From Octopus vulgaris (Eukaryota), in the NCBI GenBank assembly GCA_951406725.2, contig OX597825.1, positions 62,496,001 through 62,560,000 of the forward strand: a stretch of DNA of 64,000 nt, in the 5' to 3' direction. Of the stretch, positions 765 through 56,686 are shown one piece after another. A model generated the notes under the pieces. That model searched no databases, was not told where the DNA came from, and saw only the letters and a program-made list of their open reading frames with translations. The first letter of the stretch is position 1. Each line of letters begins with the position of its first letter. A program made the position numbers and the translations under genes.

Positions 765-1340
765 TTAAGTTCCAATGATAATCCACTATCATAGGCAAGA
801 CCCATCTGCCTTAATAATTTTGTTCCATTGACATTATGTTCTGATGGAAACGTTCAGCCAGCTCATCACTTGTGTCTCCAAGACTTCCAGAGAATTTATC
901 AAAGTGCCTTTGGAGATAGTGCAGTTTTATGGTCATATTTTCTCTCAGCTTTTGAAAGTCCTCCTGCATATTGTTAACTATTTTGGCATGGATGGTTGCT
1001 TTCTTGTTGCCCAGAAAGTCATTTACAATTACTACAAATGTCCAATTACTACAATTACTACAATTGTCCAACTCCGTCCAACCGGTGCTAGCATGGAAAA
1101 CGGATGTTAAACGATGATGATGAGGAAGAAGAATACCACGCTGCTTCAATGCAGCACCATGGTATTCTTACAAAAACCCCATCTGTTCCCTATTCCAAAA
1201 TCCCCATTCTTACAAAATCCCCATCTTACAAAATCCCCAACTTACAAAATCCCCATCTGTCATCAATTTTATGATTTGAGACCCTTCAAATACTCCATCT
1301 TTTATCTTTCCTTTGCTCAGACTGAGAAATGTACTGCAGT
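765..1340 (-). mobile_element. Decayed Chapaev3-like (CMC superfamily) DNA transposase, C-terminal part, interrupted by an RTE tail (~1075-1125) and short local duplications
   Basis: Minus-strand translation gives ...FLSLSKGKIKDGVFEGSQIIKLMTDGDF..., then FLGNKKA...MTIKLHYLQRHFDKFSGSLGDTSDELAERFHQNIMSMEQNY*GRWVLPMIVDYHWNL. This matches the recalled family pattern 'KIKEGIFVGPQIR...KIHFLHSHLDFFP.NLGAVSDEQGERFHQDI..MEKRYQGRW...M.DYCW'. Confidence 0.7.
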
Positions 1341-2378: not shown

Positions 2379-3337
2379 CATATCCACCTCATTCCCCAGG
2401 AGAAAAGTAACCATCTTAAAGCGTATGCATGTCACCCACTGATGACTGAGAGATTTAGGTATCTTGAAATCTAGACATGATGATAAAAAACGGGTTCCAT
2501 TTTGGTTTCAGCAGATCAAAACCCCTTCAAATCAGGTAAAAACACCTTGACAACAAAATACCTGTTGGGTTGTGTTACGTTAATAATAATGTTGCAATTC
2601 AATTTCTGTTAGATTTTCTCTTAAACATTATTATTATTTGTTGCAAAGAACAATTCATTATTAGATAGCTTTCAGAAGTCAATGGTGTGAATAAAAAGCA
2701 GCTTAATTTCTAAATATTGTTTAAAAAATTCTTATTCATTGTAACAAACGATATGGATACTTCATGTTAAAGGAGCCATTTTTTTTTTTTTTTAATCAAT
2801 TATTCAAGATATTTAGAGCTTTGAATTTGCTGTTGAATTCCTCCTGAGTAGAATATACAAAAGCTGGAAATATGGTAAAACTAAAAGCAGAAACAAAAAT
2901 AAAATTGTAAAGAAATTCAGTAAATTAGCAATTCAGCTATTTCTTGCCTTTCCATATGCATAACAATAACAAGAGATGATGAGAGAAGTGACTGGTAATG
3001 TCATATTCCATATAAAAAAAAAATTAAATAAATAATGTTTTCTGCCTGAATAGCAACTTGAAATTTATTGTGTAAACTAAATGCCTGAATGGGTGGACAA
3101 AATAAATGGTTTAACAATGAATGAGCTCTATCTCAAGCTTACAGCACAAAAACCATCAAAAATAAATTTTCAATAGGATAGGTGTACGCGTGGCTGTGTG
3201 ATGAAGAAACTTGCTTCCTAAGCAAGTGACTTGAGGTTCAGTTTCAATGCATGTTACTTCTACATGAACAAATTCTTGTGAATAGATTTTGTTGAAAGAC
3301 ACTGAAAGAAGCTCATTCTATCTGTCTGTCTATCTGA

Positions 3338-3958
3338 TGAGTCGGTTTATCAGCCAAGTCTATCGTCAATATCGTCACGCCTCCTTCCTTCAAACAGGAA
3401 GGAAGAGCTATTTTCATCATCCTTGTGGCTATGGCAAAAGAATGTATCTGGTGGACGCGTCTGAAAGGATTAGAGACAAACACTTTCCTCTCTGGTCAAT
3501 CTCTCATCAACTTCTTCAAGTATCACTTGTAAAGGAAAGTGAGAGTAGAGAGGCAAGTTTTGTCTAGCAAATGTTTCAAAAAAAGATGGGTGGATGTAGC
3601 AAGGATGGCACATATGAATGACGAAGCCACCTTGTGCATAATCCTATGAACCCGGAAAAATTTAAAACAGAGAGTTACTTACTTGCAAATAAATGTGTTA
3701 ACATGTGACATTATTGACTGAGGTTACCGTGGTCTTTTCCGTAGGCTTTTCTTTCCATGGATAAACCTCATCTGTTTCCCCCTTTACACTTTACATCATG
3801 ACATTTCTGTGATACCCGATCCCTATTGATCGTTTTTTTTAATGATCCCATTTGATTGAAAACCTACCCCTTGTTTTTTTTTTTTTCTCCCCCAAAAGAA
3901 AAGTTCCACTTTGTAATTTGTCCCCTCTGTGTTCAGCCTTGTGTGGCTGATAAAGAAG
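3338..3958 (+). mobile_element. 5'-truncated Tx1/L1-clade non-LTR retrotransposon (ORF2 C-terminus plus 3' UTR), inserted in the central microsatellite of an old group A SINE (3180-4437)
   Basis: Frame reads LSAKSIVNIVTPPSFKQEGRAIFIILVAMAKECIWWTRLKGLETNTFLSGQSLINFFKYHL*RKVRVERQVLSSKCFKKRWVDVARM...IIL* (stop 3647-3649). This resembles the Tx1 ORF2 end ('AK..IW.TR...F...R.R.E...F..RW'). The 3' UTR ends at TAAAGAAGCA, directly before (TCTA)n. Confidence 0.65.
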
Positions 3959-3960
3959 CA

Positions 3961-4049
<89 letters not shown>

Positions 4050-4079
4050 ATCTATCTATCTGTCTACCTACCTACCTAC

Positions 4080-4152
<73 letters not shown>

Positions 4153-4185
4153 CATCTATCTATCTATCTTTCTATCTATCTTTCG
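3961..4185. repeat. (TCTA)n tetranucleotide microsatellite
   Basis: Directly visible. It produces the spurious YLSI ORFs. Confidence 0.98.
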
Positions 4186-4599
4186 ATGTGAGTGGTCATT
4201 GTGTTTGTGTCTGTGTATGGATATGTATGTGTGTGTTTGTCCCCATACTGCTTGATAATCCATGTTGTCTGTTCACATTCCTGGGACATAGTGGCTTGCC
4301 AAAAGAACCCATGTGCCGAGTGACAGATTTAAGCATCAAAAAAGACTAAGCACAAATTTTTCACTATTCATTGAGGTTGTGCTCCTGCATGGCCACACAA
4401 TAGTTCAGTCACTGAAACAAGTACAAATAAAAGAATGCATGTGTGTCTGATAATTGGATATAGTTAACCAAATTCACTTGAAACTGAGTGCTTTATTGAT
4501 ATCTGCCTGGATTTTTTAATCCCTTCTTTCTTCTGATATATATATAAATATATAGATATGTCCCCACATACAACATACACACACATATATATGTGTGTG

Positions 4600-11681: not shown

Positions 11682-11885
11682 AGGGCAGAAAGCTGGCAGA
11701 ATTGTGAGCTTGCTGGATGAAATGCTTAGAAGTATTTCACCTGAGTTCAAATTCCGTTGAGGTCGACTTTACCTTTCATCCGTTCGGGGTGGATAAATTA
11801 AGTACCAGTTGAGTACTGGGGTCAATGTAATTGACTAGTCCCTTCCCCCAAATTCAGGCCTTATGCCTATAGTAGAAAGGATTAT
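11682..11885 (+). mobile_element. Group C SINE with the alternative tail (CCCCAAATT...GGCCTT(A/G)TGCCT...TAGAAAGGATT)
   Basis: Core GAGTTCAAATTCCG..GAGGTCGACTTT.CCTTTCATCC.TTCGGGGT.GATAAATTAAGTACCAG. Similar older copies at ~20545-20760, 29355-29560, 49535-49730 and 59815-60030. Confidence 0.75.
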
Positions 11886-13570: not shown

Positions 13571-14400
13571 ATGCCTTGTTCTTTCAATTTTGTTTTCATT
13601 TCTTGCCGAGTGTCTTCCCAACACCTAGAGCAAAGAAACTCACTGTATACATTAGTAGGCCATTAACATAAACACACCAAATTGTTAATTTACAGAGTTA
13701 TGTGACAGAAAGAAAAGGAAGAAAGAAAGAGGAAAGAAAGAAAGTCTGCATATTATGCATGAACTCATTAGTAAATTATTTGTTCTCCTTCATGAAGCTT
13801 CTTACATCAGTCATAGATTTTAACGAGTCTTAGCTTTCAGTCATTAGATGTCTCAAGATATTTGGCCAGTCCAATTGTCGTGGTTTTATCAGAAGTTTCA
13901 AATTGGATCAAGCCTCGACCTCCTTGAACTCTGGGAAGGTAAAGACAATTTGCATCTGCCTTTTGGGTGGTGCATCTTATTACAAGTCAGCAGCTCACAG
14001 GTTTTCCTGTCAATCTTCCCTATTTCGTTCATATTCCAGTTCAACACATTGAACTAGAATATGAACGAAATTTTGCTTTGTCTATTTCTTTCTGTTTAGC
14101 TTAACCCAGTATTTGCCATGAAGGGGCTTTTCTTGCCATTCTTTTATCATAACATGTCGCTGTTCCAGTTTTAGTTTGGATTTCAGTTGTTTTACAACTT
14201 TTCTTGTTAATTTTTTTTTCTACATAATTCATAGTTGTTAGGTACTATGACTTCTGTTTTTGTATTTGTCAGCTTCTCAAAGACAGAAAACAGATTTTGT
14301 TTTTCTCGTATTTTGTGGCTATTTGTATCAGTTTTCCTTGCTTCTGAAGTAGGTATTTCTGTAATTCTATGGTAGTTATTTTGTAATAGATTTCTACCAC
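13571..14400 (-). mobile_element. Rearranged fragments of an R4/Dong-clade non-LTR retrotransposon, with its 3' end abutting (TAA)n
   Basis: Minus strand VLNWNMNEIGKIDRKTCELLTCNKMHHPK (cf. 'IDRKTRKLLT...HHPKADV.RLYLPR..GGRGL'), TIGLAKYLETSND and EWQEKPLHGKYW. The 3' UTR-like end runs into TAATAATAA at 13570. Confidence 0.7.
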
Positions 14401-14428: not shown

Positions 14429-15330
14429 CAGGGTGGGGCAGAGAGGATGGATGTTTTTGAAATTACTTTTACTCAGCCCCAAGGAGAGGGTCATATGTCT
14501 GACAGGTACCATTCCATTTGTGGAACCATAGAATTTTTTTCTTTTCAGGAGAAGCCATGGTGCTGTGGACGATAGATCATTATGTGTTTGCCTACGAATT
14601 TACATGAAGAATAACGAGTCTGTCACAGTAGTTCAGCGTGAGTTATGGCACCACTTCAACATTCACCGAAAACAAGCAGTTCCCACCCATAACACAATTT
14701 TACGTTGGGTGAATGCACTTCGTACACGAGGTACACTAATGAATAAAAGACCAATGAAGGTGCCAAAAATGGTATGGACTCTGAAAAATGTGGAACGCAT
14801 CAGTAAAGCTTTAATACAGAGTCCAGATTGCTCTGCTCGGAGGCATTCCACTGAACATGACTTTGATAATCGATCAGTAAGGTGTATTTTGCATGAAGAC
14901 TTGCATTTCCACTCGTAGAAATCGATCCTTGGGCAACAGTTGAAACCATGGCACTATGCACTTTGCATGTCAGATGGAAGCAATTATTGAGGCAAACGAC
15001 AAACTCATTTTGTTAATGAGTGGTGAAGCTCATTTTCATCCCAATGGCATGGTGAATCAACAGAACTGTCGTTATTGGGCTCTTGAAAATCCGTGAGAAT
15101 TGCACGAAAGAAAACTCCACAGCCCAGATGTGATGATCTGGTATACTGTTGGAAAAGCTGCTGTTATTGGTCCTTACTTTTTTCAAAACAATAATGGAAA
15201 TGCTGTTATTGTGAACTCTGAGCATTACATTGAGATGGTAAGCAATTTCTTTGTTCCTGAATTATGACAAAAACATGCCTATTCGATGTGTGAGGTTTCA
15301 GCAGGATGGGCCACTGCCTGGTACTGCATA
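14429..15330 (+). mobile_element. rosa/DD41D-type Tc1/mariner transposase relic with 5' terminus
   Basis: TA|CAGGGTGGGGCA start. N-terminal HTH NNESVTVVQRELWHHFNI...PTHNTILRWVNALRTRGT. Catalytic region SGEAHFHPNGMVNQQNCRYWALENP...VIGPYFF...FQQDG with stops and frameshifts. Confidence 0.85.
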
Positions 15331-15410: not shown

Positions 15411-15643
15411 TATTTCTTTACTACCCACAAGGAGCTAAACACAGAGAGGACAAACAAGGACAGACAAATGGATTAAGTTGATTAAATCGACCCCAGTGTG
15501 CAACTGGTACTTATTTAATCGACCCCAAAAGGATGAAAGGCAAAGTCGACCTCGGCGGAATTTGAACTCAGAACGTAGCGGCAGACGAAATACTGCTAAG
15601 CATTTCGCCCGGCTTGCTAACGTTTCTGCCAGCTAGCTGCCTT
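15411..15643 (-). mobile_element. Group C SINE with Tx1-like tail and 22-bp TSD
   Basis: Full copy, flanked by CTTTATTGTTATAATTATTACC (15389-15410) and CTTTATTATTATAATCATTACC (15644-15665). Confidence 0.85.
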
Positions 15644-19859: not shown

Positions 19860-20530
19860 TAACAAACTGGCAGAATAGTCAGCATGCCGTGAGCTGGCAG
19901 AAACATTTGCATTCCAGGCAAAATGCTGGCAGAAACGTTAGTACGCACGGCGAAATGCTTAGCGGTATTTTGTCTGCCGTTACGTTGTGAGTTCAAATTC
20001 CGCTGAGGTCGACTTTGCCTTTCATCCTTTCGGGGTCGATAAATTAAGTACCAGTTATGCTCTGGGGTCGATATAATCGACTTAATCCATTTGTCTGTCC
20101 TTGTTTGTCCACTCTATGTTTAGCCCCTTGTGGGCAATAAAGAAATAAGAAATATTAGCATGCCAGGCGAAATGCTTTGCAGTATTTCATCTGCAACTAC
20201 ATTCTGGAGTTCAAATTCTACTGGGGTCGATTTTGCCTTTCATCCTTTTGGGGTTGATTAAATAAGTACCAGTTATGCACTGGAGTCAATATAATTGACT
20301 TAATCCGTTTGTCTGTCCTTGTTTGTCCCTTCTGTGTGTAGCCCCTAGTGGGCAGTAAAGAAATAAGTATAGTAGTTCATGTCGAACAAAATGCTTAGCA
20401 GCAAATGTTGCTAGGGTTCAATTTGCCTTTCAACCTATTGGGATCGATAGAATAAGTACCTGTTGAGTATTAGTTTCGATGTAATTGACATTCCCTGAAA
20501 TTGCCAGTCTTGTACCAAAACCAGAAACCA
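19860..20530 (+). mobile_element. Triple-nested cluster of group C SINEs
   Basis: Three heads (CTGGCAGAA at 19867, 19894, 19926). Two Tx1-like tails end AAAGAAATA (20147, 20365), each followed by resumption of the interrupted host copy. Confidence 0.8.
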
Positions 20531-40993: not shown

Positions 40994-42519
40994 CATATAT
41001 ATCGTATATATAGATATCATACAAATAACATATATATTTACAACTATCATATATCTAAGTTAGAAAAACCGAAGACAGATTCCATTACAGGATTTGGACA
41101 ACCCATCTATCACTTGCTGGGTGATCATTTTGCTAATTGTAAAAATGGCCTTCAACAAATTCTACTGATAAATTAACACCCTGAACTGAAAATTAAAATT
41201 AAAATTAAAGCTAAATGTCGTTTGTTTTCTATGAAGCTCAATATAGTCTTCTCTTCTAAAGAAAATCATGCCCTTTTCTCCTTTTACAATTTGTTGTTCT
41301 CCACATGATTTGTATAAAACAATGAAATGTTTAAGTTCTGGTGCTGAATTGAATTAAAACATGTTTATTATTAAAGGCCAGCAAAAGCTATCTGAAACAT
41401 TGAGTAAACAAGTAAATACATATAGCATATCTATTATATTGACGCTGAAGATATCAGACAAATATATATGCTATATAGTCATACATGCATACACACATAA
41501 ATACATACTTGCACACTCAAATACAAACATAGACAGAAGCACCCACACACATGTGCACAGACACACAGACACACAAACACACACACACACACGTTATTTA
41601 TGGTGTGACTGGTTAATGGTGAGGTGAAAAGTATGCAGATGTCTTTATTACACCAATGTTGGAATAGATATGTATAAGATATATGTATTAAAAGAAAGGT
41701 GTGTGAGTATTTTGGGCACATACCTCATCATCATCATCATCATTTAACGTCTGCTTTTTATGCTGGCATGGGTTGGCCAGTTTGACTGGAGCTGATGGGT
41801 CAGAGAGCTGCACCAGGTTCCGGTTTGATTTGGGATGGTTTCTAAAGCTCAATGCCCTTCCTAATGCCAACCACTCCAAGAGTGTAATTGGTGCTAATTA
41901 GAATACTTTATGTAGAGGAATATTTTATTTAGCAATTAGAAATATCAGCAGTGGTTGTGTGGTAAGAAGTTGCTTCCAAACCACATGGCTTTGGGTTCAG
42001 TTCCACTGCATGCCACCTTGAGCGGGTGGTTTCTACTCTAGCCTTGGGCTGACTAAAACCATGTGAGTAGATTTGAAAGATGGAAACTGAAAGAAGCCTG
42101 TTGTATATATATATATAAGGCGTAGGAGTGGCTGTGTGGTAAGTAGCTTGCTTACCAACCACATGGTTCCAGGTTCAGTCCCACTGCGTGGCATCTTGGA
42201 CAAGTGTCTTCTACTATAGCCTTGAGCCGACCAAAGACTTGGGAGTGGATTTGATAGACGGAAACTGAAAGAAGCCCATCGTATATATGTATATATATGT
42301 TTATGCATCTGTTTGTCCTCCCAACATCACTTGACAACCGATGCTGTTGTGTTTATGTCCCCAAAACTTAGCGGTTCGGCAGATGAGACCGATAGAATAA
42401 GTACTAGGCTTACAAAGAATAAGTCCTTGGGTCGATTTGCTCGACTAAAGGCAGTGCTCCAGCATGGCCACAGTCAAATGACTGAAACAAGTAACAGAGT
42501 AAAAAGAGTAATGAGCATA

Positions 42520-43127
42520 TATTTTAACTGCATCAGTAAACTTAAATGGACCTGTAATGTCTCCTCCATCTCTACCAGCCCGAAACATGATTCCTCCACC
42601 ACCCTGCTGTCTTCTTAATCGTGTCGGTTGACTTTTTCCATGTAGCACCCAGCCTCTTGCCCATCTATCAGGTCTGTCTAATGTTGCCCTGAACTGGTCA
42701 GTAAAAATTATATTTGTAAAGACTTCATATATCTTTTTACTCATATCACTCTTTTTTTTCTTTATGTACTTTATTTAAAGGAAGCAATTTTGCAAAATTT
42801 ATGACTTTGCTTATGTCTTTTAGTATTGCGCAACGTTTTTTTCCTTTGTACGTTAGAGATTCCTGCTTCTTCAAAGATTTGTTTGCTGGTTAACCCACTT
42901 TTCTTGCACATAATTCTTTCGAGTTTTCTCTTATCTCTATTTTTGATGTTCTTGAAACCTGTTTTCTTCCATATTTTTACTCTCTCTACGATTTGTACCT
43001 GTTTTTTTTTTTATTATTGCTCTGTGATCTTTAGCGTTTTAGAAATTGCAATTCTCGTATCCCCTTCTCCCGGTAGTTTCACTATTTCTTTCATCTCCTT
43101 TGATGTTATATCTTTACTTCGACCCAT
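42520..43127 (-). mobile_element. Tc1/Tc3-like transposase relic, N-terminal half
   Basis: Starts MGRSKDITSKE at 43127. IIFTDQFRATLDRPDRWARGWVLHGKSQPTRLRRQQGGGGIMF corresponds to 'FTDE.R..LDGPDGW...W....R..RQQGGG.VM.W'. Confidence 0.85.
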
Positions 43128-45188: not shown

Positions 45189-45755
45189 TTGGGTTGTCCG
45201 GAAAGTTCGTGCCGATTTACAATAGCTTACATTTCAACTTATTTTAGAACATGGTTGAGTCCATAAAATAGGATTTGACTACATCTCCATTTAGAACACA
45301 GTTTAAGCTATCTTTTCTTGGAGCAAGGTTTATGTTCCTATAACCTGTGTTCATTCTGTAACCCTTTAAAGTGGAAGATAAGAAAGTTCCTTTTCAGCAC
45401 TTGATGCTTTGGGAACCATACAAAAATTTCTGAAGCTGGGCTGGGATGTGTTATCCCACCCTCCATATTCACCAGATATTGCTCTTTCAGATTTCCACCT
45501 ATTCAGGTCTCTACAGAATAGTCTTAATGGTAAAAATTTCAATTCCTTGGATGACGTAAAAAGATACCTTGATGAATTCTTTGCCATAAAACCATCTCAA
45601 TTCTGGAGAAGAGGGTATTTTCAAGTTAAAGGAAAGATGAAGACGCATTGTGCAACAAAATGGTTCATGTTTGGTAGATTAAAAATGTAATGGCAAGAGT
45701 TTATTGACCTTTTTCTTTCCTTTAAGAATCAGCACGAACTTTCCAGACAACCCAA
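45189..45755 (+). mobile_element. Internally deleted mariner (DD34D) element with intact TIRs
   Basis: TA|TTGGGTTGTCCGGAAAGTTCGTGCCGATT ... AATCAGCACGAACTTTCCAGACAACCCAA|TA. Coding remnant LGWDVLSHPPYSPDIALSDFHLFRSLQNSL fused to a short N-terminal stub. Confidence 0.93.
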
Positions 45756-47804: not shown

Positions 47805-48198
47805 AAGCAGCGAGCTAGCAGAAACGTTAGCACGCTGGGCGAAATGCTTAGCGGTATTTCGTCTGCTGCTATGTTCTGAGTTCAAATTCTGCTGAGGTCG
47901 GCTTTGCCTTTCATCCTTTCAGGGTCAATTTAATAAGTACCAGTTATGCACTAGGGTCGATATAATTGACTTAATCCGTTTGTCTGTCCTTCTTTGTTCT
48001 CTCTGTGTTTAACTCCTTGTACGTAGTAAAGAAATAGGTATTTTGTCTGTCTTTACATTCTGAGTTCAGTTTCCGACTTTACCTTTCATCCATTTGGGGT
48101 TGATGAATTAAGTATCAGCTGTGTGCTGCGGTTGATCTAATCGACTGGCCCCTTTCCCCAAAATTTCGAACCTTGTGCCTAGATTAGAGAAGAATATT
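47805..48198 (+). mobile_element. Group C SINE dimer (Tx1-tailed unit followed by an alternative-tail unit), interrupting a mariner end (47678-47795)
   Basis: The first unit ends TAAAGAAATA (48036). The second resumes at GGTATTTT (48037). Confidence 0.8.
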
Positions 48199-49126
48199 AC
48201 AGTCCGATTACACAGAATAATTGAACAATATCACTTAATTATTACACAGAAAATAAAACAACCTCACAAATTTACCATAGAAAATGATAGTCAAGTTAAC
48301 ACCAACATAACTTATTCTCTCCTTCAGAATATTATGTATAATTGTTAATCCACTATTTACTTCTAAGTGCTTACTTTCACAATTTATTTGAGCACAAACC
48401 ATTTGTGCTGCAAACTGTATAACAATTATTAATATGCTATGTCATATATCAGAAACAACAATTGCCAATAATTTTGGTAATGAGATAAAATAATTATCTA
48501 TCGCTTTATATAATAACCTATTTAAAAAATTAATACTGATGCAATTGTCTTCATTTTCTGTAAATAAACAGTTATTTTTTTCCCTTTTCAAAGTAATTGT
48601 ACAGTTTTTATATTAGAATTTTTTAAATGTTGTTTGTTTCATTAACCACTAAAAATGAAAATCAGAATATTCCAGGAAGAAAATTTAGCAGACAGCTTAA
48701 TGTGACCTTCCTTTCTTAAAGTTATGCTATAGAAAAATCTGGTGTTGGTGTGTTTACATCTCCATAACTAAGCAGTTTGTCTAAAAAGATAATATTAGAA
48801 GTACACAAGTAAATCTTGTATTCACCATAACAGAAGGTACTGTGATTACTATTCACATTACAATGGGCTCGGCCCCTAAGACTTAAGTTTATTTGTGACA
48901 AATGCTGCACAGTTTTATAATATGAACAGCCAAGCATAAATAATTGTTAGCTGCTTTATCAACTCTACTGAACACAACTCTGCAAGATTCCCGTATTTGT
49001 GTTTGAAACTGAGGTGCAATGCAATATCAAGTAGATAGCATGACAGCAAGAAATATAATCATTATTGTTAAGGTAGCAAGCTGGTAGAATTGTTAGCATG
49101 TTGGACAAAATGCATAGTGGTATTTC

Positions 49127-49353
49127 CCGAGCTGGCAGAATCGTTAGCACGCTGGGCGAAATGCCAAGCGGTATTTCGTATGCCGTTACATTCTGAGTTC
49201 AAATTCCGCCGAGGTCGACTTTGCCTTTCATCCTTCCGGAGTCGGTAAATTAAGTACCAGTTACGCACTGGGGTTGATATAATCGACTTAATCCGTTTGT
49301 CTGTCCTTGTTTGTCCTCTCTGTGTTTAGCCCCTTATGGGTAGTAATGAAATA
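49127..49353 (+). mobile_element. Group C Tx1-tailed SINE inserted in an older group C SINE, with an 8-bp TSD
   Basis: GGTATTTC at 49119-49126 and 49354-49361. The host copy spans ~49070-49522. Confidence 0.88.
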
Positions 49354-50109
49354 GGTATTTCGCCTGTCACTATGTTCCAAGTTCAAATTATGCCGAGGTC
49401 AACTTAGCCTTTCGTTGTTTTGGGGTTGATAAATTAAGTACCAGCGAAGCATTGGGGTCGATGTAAACGACTAGCCTCTACCCCCATTGTTTCAGGCCTT
49501 TTGCCTTTGGTAGAAAGGATTATTATCATTATTGTTGAGGCAGTGAGCTGGTAGAATCATTAGAGCACTGGACAAAATGTTTAGGGGCATTGTGTTCGTC
49601 TTTGTTCTGGGTTCAAATTCCATCAAGGTTGACTTTGCCATTCATCATTTTGGAGTTGATAAATTAAGTACCAGTTACGTACTGGGGTTAATGTAATCCC
49701 CCTTTTGCCAAAATTTCAGTCCTTGTGCCTTTATCATTGTCGTCAACCTTCTCCATCATCATCATCGTCATCCTTCTCCTTTTTCTCTTTCTGTTCTTCC
49801 TCCTCCTCCTCCTCATCATCATCATCATCTCCACCTTTCTCATTGTTTTAATGTATGTTTCACATACTTGCAAGGAACAGATGACCTTGTATGGGTGTTT
49901 ATACATCCATGTCTGTTAACGGTTATTTTTAATACTTTTCTTGTTGTATTGTGTGTTCATTTCTTTTTTGCATACTCTTTTACTCTTTTACTTGTTTCAG
50001 TCATTTGACTGCGGCCATGCTGGAGCACCGCCTTTAGTTGAGGACGTAAACACACCAGCATCGGTTGTCAAGCGATGGTGGGGGGACAAACACAGACACA
50101 CAAACATAT

Positions 50110-54320: not shown

Positions 54321-54366
54321 CTGGACATACATACACACACACACACATATATATATATAACAAAAC

Positions 54367-54404
54367 CTGTTACTCTGAGTTTCACGGTCCCGTTCATCAG
54401 ACAG
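54367..54404 (-). ncRNA. Minimal type I hammerhead ribozyme motif (Penelope pLTR type)
   Basis: Minus strand CTGT-CTGATGA-ACG GGAC CGT-GAAA-CTC A GAG-TA-ACAG: intact core, stems I, II and III, and a GUA cleavage triplet. Confidence 0.75.
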
Positions 54405-54417
54405 TTTTTGCTAGAAT

Positions 54418-54455
54418 CTGTCTGACGAACAGGAATGTGAAACTCAGAGTAACAG
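54418..54455 (+). ncRNA. Minimal type I hammerhead ribozyme motif (inverted partner)
   Basis: CTGT-CTGACGA-ACA GGAA TGT-GAAA-CTC A GAG-TA-ACAG, with AATAAA ~30 nt downstream. Confidence 0.72.
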
Positions 54456-54564
54456 GTTTTGTTGAATTTTTTCTGCTGCTTTTAAATAAAGCATATATAT
54501 ATATACATATATATATATGTATGTATGTATATATGTATGTGTATATATATATGTGTGTGTGTGT

Positions 54565-56039: not shown

Positions 56040-56458
56040 CAAGGCAGCGAGCTGGCAGACACGTTAGTGTGCCGGGCGAAATGCTTAGCGGTATTTCGTC
56101 TGTCGTTACATTCTGAGTTCAAATTCCGCCGAGGTCGACTTTACCTTTCATCCTTTTGGGGTCGATAAATAAAGTACCAGTTTCGCACTGGGGTCAATGT
56201 AATCGACTTAATCCCTCTGTCTGACCTTGTTTGTCCCCTCTATGTTTAGCCCCTTGTGGGTAATAAAGAAATAGGTATTTCGTCTGTCGTTACATTCTGA
56301 GTTCAAATTCCGCCGAGGTCGACTTTGCCTTTCATCCTTTCGGGGTCGATAAATTAAAGTACCAGTTGCACACTGAGGTTGATGTAATCGACTTAATCCC
56401 TCTGTCTGTCCTTGTTTGTCCCCTCTATGTTTAGCTTCTTGTGGGCAGTAAAGAAATA
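56040..56458 (+). mobile_element. Group C Tx1-tailed SINE dimer with a 16-bp TSD, inserted in an older group B SINE
   Basis: TSD TAAAAC(T/A)ATGCAAAAG at 56024-56039 and 56459-56474. Internal junction AAAGAAATA|GGTATTTC at 56273/56274. Confidence 0.88.
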
Positions 56459-56614: not shown

Positions 56615-56686
56615 TGCTGTGACCAGGATTCGAACCTGGATTACCACGGCCACAACGTGGGGTCCTAACCACTAGACGATCACGGC
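56615..56686 (-). tRNA. tRNA-His-GTG: tRNA-His (GTG); possibly a mildly decayed copy
   Basis: Minus strand GCCGTGATCGTCTAGTGGTTAGGACCCCACGTTGTGGCCGTGGTAATCCAGGTTCGAATCCTGGTCACAGCA, 72 nt, full cloverleaf with GTG anticodon. It has a C3:A70 mismatch in the acceptor stem. Confidence 0.93.

What the first reader, a model, noticed from the sequence alone, without database searches (positions are those of the whole stretch)
3905..3958. SINE-LINE partnership visible in one window: the group C SINE tail matches the 3' end of the Tx1-like LINE
Seen: the LINE ends TTTGTCCCCTCTGTGTTCAGCCTTGTGTGGCTGATAAAGAAGCA. Group C SINEs end TTTGTCC(C)CTCT(G/A)TGTTTAGCCCCTTGTGGG(T/C)A(G/A)TAAAGAAATA (15411-, 20147, 20365, 48036, 49353, 56273, 56458). 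Known: SINEs borrow the 3' tail of the LINE that mobilises them. Most described partners are CR1/L2/RTE, and Tx1/L1-clade tail sharing is uncommon. Inference: this SINE subfamily swapped an older tail for a Tx1-like tail and is moved by that LINE, which fits its long TSDs (8-29 bp).
Basis: partly seen in the sequence, partly recalled or inferred. Interest (0 to 1): 0.8.

Follow-up and report, generated by a model that had tools for sequence, protein, structure and literature searches.

The report
Octopus SINE borrows L1-group LINE tail
In an octopus-like genome, seven copies of a younger SINE subfamily end in the same 41 bases as a broken L1-group LINE nearby, so the SINE likely took over that LINE lineage's tail and is likely moved by it, a pairing that the papers searched report only for plants and algae.

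Summary
The match is real but starts at 3917, not 3905. 34 of 41 bases (3917-3957) equal the majority sequence of seven SINE tails, and both elements stop there without poly(A). Upstream lies a 5'-truncated LINE remnant (3339-3960). Its closest full-length relative has an endonuclease, a reverse transcriptase and a zinc knuckle, and hits human L1 ORF2p far better than R2. So L1 group is shown; the Tx1 branch is inferred only. The tail swap is well supported: one head and core carries the new tail in 7 copies (8.6% diverged) and other tails in 9 copies (23.8%). The decisive test, a second LINE copy ending in this tail, could not be run. Public contigs confirm the LINE family only to 3862. That the tail is the LINE's own end rests on position, divergence (P 0.007-0.2) and a 6-bp hairpin (P 0.015-0.05). 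Long TSDs do not single out this partner. Extra: five of seven copies are followed by the rest of a related SINE head, cut at one of two sites, hinting at target preference. SINE-LINE tail sharing is a known kind; I found no animal L1/Tx1 case in the papers searched, but Repbase and Dfam were not searchable.

The parts
3339..3960 (+). 5'-truncated L1-group (likely Tx1-type) LINE remnant; 3' end uncertain by up to 9 nt (3952-3960)
   Evidence: contigs of 3 of 4 runs (among the loose ends shown) continue upstream of 3339 into more ORF2 sequence, and family contigs cover up to 3862..
3341..3649 (+). C-terminal 102 codons of ORF2 with one in-frame stop at 3530-3532, then the stop codon
   Evidence: 71% identical to residues 1047-1148 of P0159; 95% over 37 aa to an Octopus bimaculoides gene model
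3650..3916 (+). LINE 3' UTR with T-rich tracts; family membership confirmed to 3862 only
   Evidence: depth and piece 24 (3711-3862, no gaps)
3917..3957 (+). 41-nt tail shared with the new-tail SINE subfamily
   Evidence: 34 of 41 identical to the majority of 7 SINE tails
3933..3950 (+). Predicted 6-bp stem with 6-nt loop inside the tail
   Evidence: -12.5 kcal/mol, z -2.9, 3 of 200 shuffles
3305..3335 (+). Left copy of a possible ~30-bp target duplication (right copy 3952-3981); low-complexity, so weak
3178..3336 (+). 5' half of an old host SINE (group A) into whose internal microsatellite the LINE inserted
   Evidence: 60-65% to other window copies
3961..4185 (+). (TCTA)n microsatellite of the host SINE
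   Evidence: Sequence
4186..4440 (+). 3' half of the host SINE
   Evidence: 59-65% to other window copies
15411..15641 (-). New-tail SINE, full length, 23-bp TSD
19925..20147 (+). New-tail SINE nested at head position 14 of another new-tail copy, 26-29 bp TSD
19888..20365 (+). New-tail SINE split by the nested copy (body 20148-20365); itself inserted at head position 14 of an old-tail copy
47806..48036 (+). New-tail SINE followed by an old-tail copy starting at head position 47 (48037-48195)
49128..49353 (+). New-tail SINE nested at head position 47 of an old-tail copy (49068-49520), 8-bp TSD
56043..56458 (+). Dimer: full new-tail copy (to 56273) plus a new-tail copy from head position 47; 16-bp TSD around the pair
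11685..11885 (+). Example old-tail copy with the same head and core; others near 20366, 20549, 29357, 48037, 49354, 49540, 59822, 62410

Best explanation
A tRNA-type SINE family in this octopus-like genome carries two kinds of tail, and the younger kind matches the last 41 bases of an L1-group LINE remnant, so the SINE likely gained that LINE lineage's 3' end and is likely copied by its reverse transcriptase. Shown: same head and core with different tails; new-tail copies younger; LINE is L1-group; both end without poly(A). Inferred steps: (1) a template switch or recombination joined the SINE core to the 3' end of this LINE family or a close sister; (2) the LINE protein recognises the tail by sequence and a small hairpin (stringent type) and starts reverse transcription at a fixed base, which would explain why 7 of 7 SINE copies end at the same nucleotide with no poly(A); (3) the LINE endonuclease picks the sites, with a possible taste for other SINEs; (4) the LINE is on the Tx1 branch.
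For: Match 34 of 41, P about 1e-13, at the 3' end of both elements; still 25 of 32 without the first nine bases. Tail swap: 7 new-tail copies 8.6% from their leave-one-out majority, 9 old-tail copies 23.8%. LINE identity: P0159 (1148 aa, 71% to the remnant) has Exo_endo_phos, RVT_1 and zf-RVT and hits human L1 ORF2p at 1.5e-53 against R2 at 2.7e-19. Family contigs run through the UTR to 3862, 55 nt before the tail. The LINE copy differs from its family at roughly 3-8% (14 majority-different places in run X2 among the 40 rows shown, 42 places in all), yet its tail differs from the SINE majority at 9 of 44, P 0.007 at 8%, more than a SINE fragment younger than the LINE should. 7 LINE letters occur in none of 7 SINE copies; three of them (3934, 3947, 3949) pair in a perfect 6-bp stem, reached by 1.5% of 5000 simulated decayed SINE tails. 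All 7 SINE copies keep 185 nt or more, none is a 41-nt stub.
Against: One LINE copy only; no second copy with the tail was read (skipped 3867-3965; searches found none). The loose ends behind 3840 that end in TTCCAC fit the sequence just before the tail, but one X2 contig places a similar motif before 3844, so they are ambiguous. Divergence test weakens to P 0.04 if the last three letters are target-derived, and to 0.07-0.20 against the SINE tails' own spread of 11.7%. By folding energy 5.4% of simulated decayed tails do as well as the LINE tail. The SINE hairpin is weak: a 4-bp stem in the minimum-energy fold of 3 of 7 copies, z from -2.5 to +1.2. The first 24 nt of the new tail match another SINE family at 21 of 24, so the tail may be a mosaic. 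Tx1 branch not resolved.
Confidence: 0.72

Rival explanations
1. 3917-3957 is a separate, heavily 5'-truncated and decayed SINE copy that landed at the LINE's 3' end; the LINE family ends in another sequence.
For: The SINE often sits in other repeats (5 of 7 ends abut a related SINE). The tail's divergence is not significant against the SINE tails' own spread (P 0.07-0.20). Loose ends behind 3840 in run X15 read a different T-rich then A-rich sequence (26 contigs, agreement 0.48).
Against: Needs truncation to 41 nt (0 of 7 copies are under 185 nt), the same strand, exact abutment and loss of the LINE's own end; no TSD between UTR and tail; one duplication-like flank surrounds LINE plus tail; the LINE version folds better than any SINE copy.
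Confidence: 0.12
2. The tail is shared, but the flow went the other way or came from a third element: the LINE picked up a SINE end (3' capture), or both took it from another repeat, and the SINE is moved by another LINE.
For: The new tail's first 24 nt match the group A SINE middle at 21 of 24 (1 of 500 shuffles), and the LINE sits inside a group A copy, so sequence does move among these repeats. O. vulgaris holds many LINE clades (PMC13282606, supplementary table 1).
Against: The older SINE copies lack this tail, so it was new to the SINE. LINE 3' UTR and tail are contiguous. Known tail swaps run LINE to SINE (PMC5786205, PMC11481361; passages).
Confidence: 0.09
3. The tail came from this LINE lineage but is a passenger: the LINE protein is relaxed about its template, as human L1 is, and the swap mattered for another reason such as RNA stability.
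For: SINE hairpin weak and not clearly conserved; L1-clade LINEs rarely share tails (PMC3472496: 3 of 58 pairs; passages).
Against: 7 of 7 SINE ends stop at the same base with no poly(A) or tandem repeat, unlike poly(A) priming.
Confidence: 0.07

Closest known systems
Maize ZmSINE2/ZmSINE3 with LINE1-1_ZM, and Chlamydomonas SINEX-3_CR with L1-1_CR (Ohshima 2012 PMC3472496, passages; Ohshima 2013 PMC3747384, passages and Table 1)
   Same: tRNA-type SINE sharing a short 3' end (about 45-80 nt there, 41 here) with an L1-clade LINE; predicted hairpin in the tail
   Different: Those are plants and algae and were the only 3 L1-tail SINEs among 58 pairs; they end in poly(A) or poly(T). This one is animal, has no terminal repeat, and its LINE is likely Tx1-type.
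Crocodilian SINEU with Tx1-Mar (Kojima 2015 PMC4494074; passages and section 16)
   Same: A Tx1 LINE as likely mobiliser of a SINE; both prefer to insert in another repeat
   Different: That link rests on shared targets and age; the paper says no Repbase LINE resembles the 3' half of SINEU-1. Here the link is tail sequence. SINEU heads are U1/U2-derived.
Bivalve SINE-LINE partnerships with CR1, CR1-Zenon, L2 and Nimb (Martelossi 2024 PMC11481361; Nishihara 2016 PMC4824008; passages)
   Same: Mollusc SINEs that keep head and core and exchange LINE-derived tails
   Different: No L1/Tx1 partner among the four clades named; cephalopods not mentioned in Martelossi 2024's main text
Octopus SINEs OK, OR1, OR2 (Ohshima and Okada 1994; not read, seen only as cited) and O. 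vulgaris 'tRNA-Deu' and 'L1-Tx1' repeat classes (Bonar 2026 PMC13282606; parts 1-2 of 3 and supplement)
   Same: Same kind of genome; 80 L1-Tx1 and 17 tRNA-Deu families are listed there
   Different: The parts read describe no SINE-LINE pair. I could not compare sequences, so which named SINE this is remains open.
Microsatellite-targeting Tx1 elements Kibi and Koshi (as cited in PMC4494074)
   Same: The LINE here sits in a (TCTA)n tract
   Different: Target repeat differs; preference rests on one copy plus two weak contig joints

Membership tests
L1 group of non-LTR retrotransposons | ORF2 with N-terminal AP endonuclease, RT and C-terminal zinc knuckle | tested here: met
   On the relative P0159, 71% identical over the remnant; the window holds only the last 102 codons
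L1 group of non-LTR retrotransposons | RT closer to L1 than to other clades | tested here: met
   Human L1 ORF2p 1.5e-53 over residues 5-883, R2 2.7e-19; only L1 and R2 ORFs were among the 15 PDB hits, so CR1, L2 and RTE were not compared
Tx1 clade | RT groups with Xenopus Tx1L, Keno, Kibi, Koshi | tested here: inconclusive
   Tree of 136 RTs puts P0159 in a 6-row clade with support 100 but holds no named reference; 30 look-ups gave no Tx1 or L1 name. P0159 reads DQSKAFDRVDH and SAYADD where human L1 reads otherwise; that these are Tx1-like is recalled, not tested
Tx1 clade | Frequent target preference for repeats | tested here: inconclusive
   One copy in a SINE's microsatellite; two X2 contigs join the same SINE half to other truncation points (shorter side 21 nt in the one listed)
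tRNA-derived SINE | [quoted passage not shown] | tested here: inconclusive
   A-box-like TGGCAGA and B-box-like GTTCAAATTCC seen by eye; ARAGORN and Rfam called no tRNA in the head
tRNA-derived SINE | Short, dispersed, non-coding, TSD-flanked | tested here: met
   About 231 nt, 16 copies in 64 kb, TSDs at 5 of 7 new-tail ends
Stringent SINE-LINE pair | SINE tail homologous to the 3' end of the LINE | tested here: met
   For this one LINE copy: 34 of 41
Stringent SINE-LINE pair | The tail is the end of the LINE family, not of one copy | tested here: inconclusive
   One search confirms to 3862 and skipped the rest
Stringent SINE-LINE pair | Conserved stem-loop in both tails | tested here: inconclusive
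   Strong in the LINE (z -2.9), weak 4-bp stem in 3 of 7 SINE copies
Stringent SINE-LINE pair | Overlapping activity periods | tested here: inconclusive
   SINE 8.6% (7 copies) against LINE 3-8% (1 copy)
Stringent SINE-LINE pair | Tail needed for retrotransposition | not testable with these tools
   Needs a cell assay
Deu/Nin-DC or CORE SINE superfamily | Shared central domain | not testable with these tools
   Domain sequences could not be read. The CORE motif CCTTGGG quoted in PMC5786205 is in the group A host family and not in the aligned head and core here; a Deu/Nin likeness is recalled only

The most novel reading that the evidence does not exclude
First animal SINE with a tail taken from a Tx1-type LINE that recognises its template stringently, without poly(A), and whose endonuclease steers both partners into other SINEs (RGY before the nick; two fixed sites in the SINE's own head), extending stringent recognition in the L1 clade from plants and algae to animals.
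Probability: 0.35. Interest if true: 0.72.

Novelty: new variant of a known kind. Interest (0 to 1): 0.52.

Why it matters
Ohshima (PMC3472496) proposed that L1-clade LINEs once recognised a specific 3' end and that mammals and most plants lost this, but his only three tail-sharing examples were plant and algal. An animal L1/Tx1-type pair with a 41-nt tail and no poly(A) would test that idea directly and give a small RNA element for asking how an L1-type ORF2 protein picks its template. It would also name a driver for part of the SINE expansion in octopus, where SINEs cover about 12% of the O. vulgaris genome and most families are unclassified (PMC13282606).

Tried and rejected
No own genome is held. 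Second LINE copy with the tail: metagenome scans gave 0 of 103 stretches and 5 distant loci at 24-37% from 191 stretches (not analysed further); prokaryote genomes 0 of 328 and 0 for the tail pattern; viral contigs 0. Laying contigs of 4 of 24 listed runs skipped the last 99 letters as repeat, so zero depth there means nothing. No RNA holder was on record; two runs guessed to be RNA hold the LINE, which does not show transcription. A protein search with the read-through UTR and tail found no candidate. The O. vulgaris transcriptome supplement of PMC9115989 was too large to read; motif searches gave 0 in the files read, and files 5-8 were not searched. Pfam found nothing in the two remnant pieces. 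ESM Atlas gave only RT family names. Text search for four sequence motifs: 0 papers. Literature searches for a described pair gave no octopus SINE-Tx1 pair; one search returned only the SINEU paper. SINEBase supplements and Albertin 2015 were not available; Repbase, Dfam and the Zenodo library of PMC13282606 were not searchable, and they may already hold this pair. Rejected: chance match; TSD length as proof of partner (old-tail copy 49068-49520 has a 14-20 bp duplication-like flank); start of homology at 3905. Earlier scan notes held nothing for this genome or these sequences.

Full report
Setting. The window is repeat-rich animal DNA with no whole genome held. The remnant upstream of the finding is 95% identical over 37 residues to an Octopus bimaculoides gene model and has relatives in Argonauta, so the source is octopus-like.

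The observation. The quoted string lies at 3917-3960; homology starts at 3917, not 3905. All 7 cited SINE ends are present and stop at the same base with no poly(A). Against their majority sequence the segment matches 34 of 41 (3917-3957), P about 1e-13 at a fixed position, and 25 of 32 when the first nine bases are left out. It is the best hit in the window once SINE tails are masked (47 against a maximum of 31 in 60 shuffles).

The LINE. 3341-3649 encodes the last 102 residues of an ORF2 with one in-frame stop. It is 71% identical to the end of P0159, a 1148-residue protein with endonuclease, reverse transcriptase and zf-RVT domains, whose best solved relative is human L1 ORF2p (1.5e-53; R2 2.7e-19). 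Contigs of 4 public runs pile up on 3339-3862, and loose ends before 3339 continue the reading frame, so this is a 5'-truncated copy of a high-copy family. L1 group is therefore shown. Tx1 is inferred: my tree of 136 RTs (of 137 proteins of 700-1400 aa offered) has no named reference, and 30 cluster look-ups gave no clade name. O. vulgaris has both L1-Tx1 (80 families) and L1 (60) in PMC13282606's supplementary table. The copy sits in the internal microsatellite of an old SINE of another family (halves 3178-3336 and 4186-4440). 3305-3335 aligns with 3952-3981, so the last 3-9 letters of the 'LINE tail' may be duplicated target.

The SINE and the swap. One head and core occurs with the new tail in 7 copies and with unrelated pyrimidine-rich tails in 9 copies; the tails part right after the core. 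Over the shared part, new-tail copies lie 8.6% (6.6-14.2) from their leave-one-out majority and old-tail copies 23.8% (17.7-37.3). The new tail is 62 nt; only its last 41-44 match the LINE. Its first 24 nt match the middle of the host SINE family at 21 of 24 (1 of 500 shuffles), overlapping the LINE match by nine bases, so the tail may have been built in two steps.

Is the tail the LINE's own end? This is the open point. One search skipped 3867-3965 as repeat, and every other route to a second copy came back empty. Loose ends behind 3840 in run X2 (37 contigs, agreement 0.5) end in TTCCAC, as the window does just before the tail, but one contig puts a similar motif before 3844 and run X15 reads differently, so I do not count this. 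Indirect support: no SINE copy is shorter than 185 nt; the segment is contiguous with the UTR, on the same strand, inside one duplication-like flank. The LINE copy is about 3-8% from its family (53 rows of differences were not shown) while its tail is 9 of 44 from the SINE majority (P 0.007 at 8%; 0.04 for 7 of 41; 0.07-0.20 against the SINE tails' own 11.7%). The LINE version folds a perfect 6-bp stem (z -2.9, 3 of 200 shuffles) that 1.5% of simulated decayed SINE tails reach by stem length and 5.4% by energy. The SINE's own stem is only 4 bp and appears in 3 of 7 copies. Each line is modest; together they put me at about 0.8 that the tail is the LINE's.

Insertion sites. TSDs were found at 5 of 7 ends (8 to 29 bp), none at 48036 or the 56273 monomer. 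An old-tail copy has a similar flank, so length does not identify the partner. More telling: 5 of 7 new-tail ends are followed at once by the rest of a related SINE head, cut at position 14 (two) or 47 (three), and all 5 resolvable TSDs are preceded by RGY (background 0.042). The motif is post hoc, two cases are the same homologous site, and two of the position-47 cases may be dimers moved as units. Target preference for other repeats is a known Tx1 trait (PMC4494074, passages), so this fits but does not prove the pairing.

Mechanism. Most likely the SINE core was joined to the LINE's 3' end by template switching, and the LINE protein then copied SINE RNA from a fixed base, recognising the tail rather than poly(A). 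The 17-20% difference suggests the donor was an ancestor or sister of this family; at least three related families exist. All mechanistic steps are inferred.

Against what is known. Tail sharing and tail exchange are standard for SINEs (PMC5786205, PMC4824008, PMC11481361; passages). For the L1 clade, Ohshima found 3 of 58 pairs, all plant or algal (PMC3472496 passages; PMC3747384 Table 1 lists no mollusc and no Tx1 pair). Kojima linked SINEU to Tx1-Mar by shared targets without tail homology (PMC4494074). Eight keyword searches and one motif search found no octopus SINE-Tx1 pair. Also seen as passages only: PMC4758252, PMC9115989, PMC8967140, PMC11203168, PMC5804259, PMC3531059. Ohshima and Okada 1994, Albertin 2015, Repbase, Dfam, the SINEBase supplements and the unread supplements of PMC9115989 could hold a prior description or the missing LINE end.

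Verdict. Observation confirmed; interpretation partly supported and likely right in the main. New variant of a known kind, interest 0.52, limited by a single LINE copy and unsearched repeat databases.

Noticed in passing
window 20147, 20365, 48036, 49353, 56273: Five of seven new-tail SINE ends abut the rest of a related SINE head at position 14 or 47; position 47 lies at the loop edge of a predicted 12-bp hairpin in the head. Possible self-targeting or dimer formation.
   Followed up: partly
window 56215-56238 and group A copies such as 50081-: First 24 nt of the new tail match the middle of the group A SINE family at 21 of 24 (1 of 500 shuffles); low-complexity caveat.
   Followed up: partly
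window 3335-3336 (table 5c): Two contigs of run X2 join the group A SINE 5' half to the LINE at other truncation points (3495, 3688), hinting that this LINE family repeatedly inserts in that SINE's microsatellite.
   Followed up: no
window 3699 (loose ends): 26 contigs in X2 and 2 in X14 carry an A-tract ending in the same nine letters as the SINE tail just before 3699; unexplained, perhaps another subfamily's UTR.
   Followed up: no
window 3706-3840: Depth rises again in the distal 3' UTR, with different loose ends before 3706 and 3718, suggesting several subfamilies share a conserved distal UTR block.
   Followed up: no
window 56615-56686 (-): tRNA-His(GTG) gene or pseudogene 160 bp from the SINE dimer (57 bits).
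   Followed up: no
window 11685-62600, nine old-tail copies: The old tails themselves fall into at least two end types, so this SINE family may have changed partner more than once; their partner LINE was not looked for.
   Followed up: no
window 811-1167(-), 14532-14918(+), 42445-42774(-), 45382-45690(-): Short ORF remnants that look like DNA-transposon transposases (likeness recalled, not tested).
   Followed up: no
window 14022-14071 and 54359-54463: Short self-matching or inverted-repeat segments in the self-BLAST, possibly small non-autonomous DNA elements.
   Followed up: no
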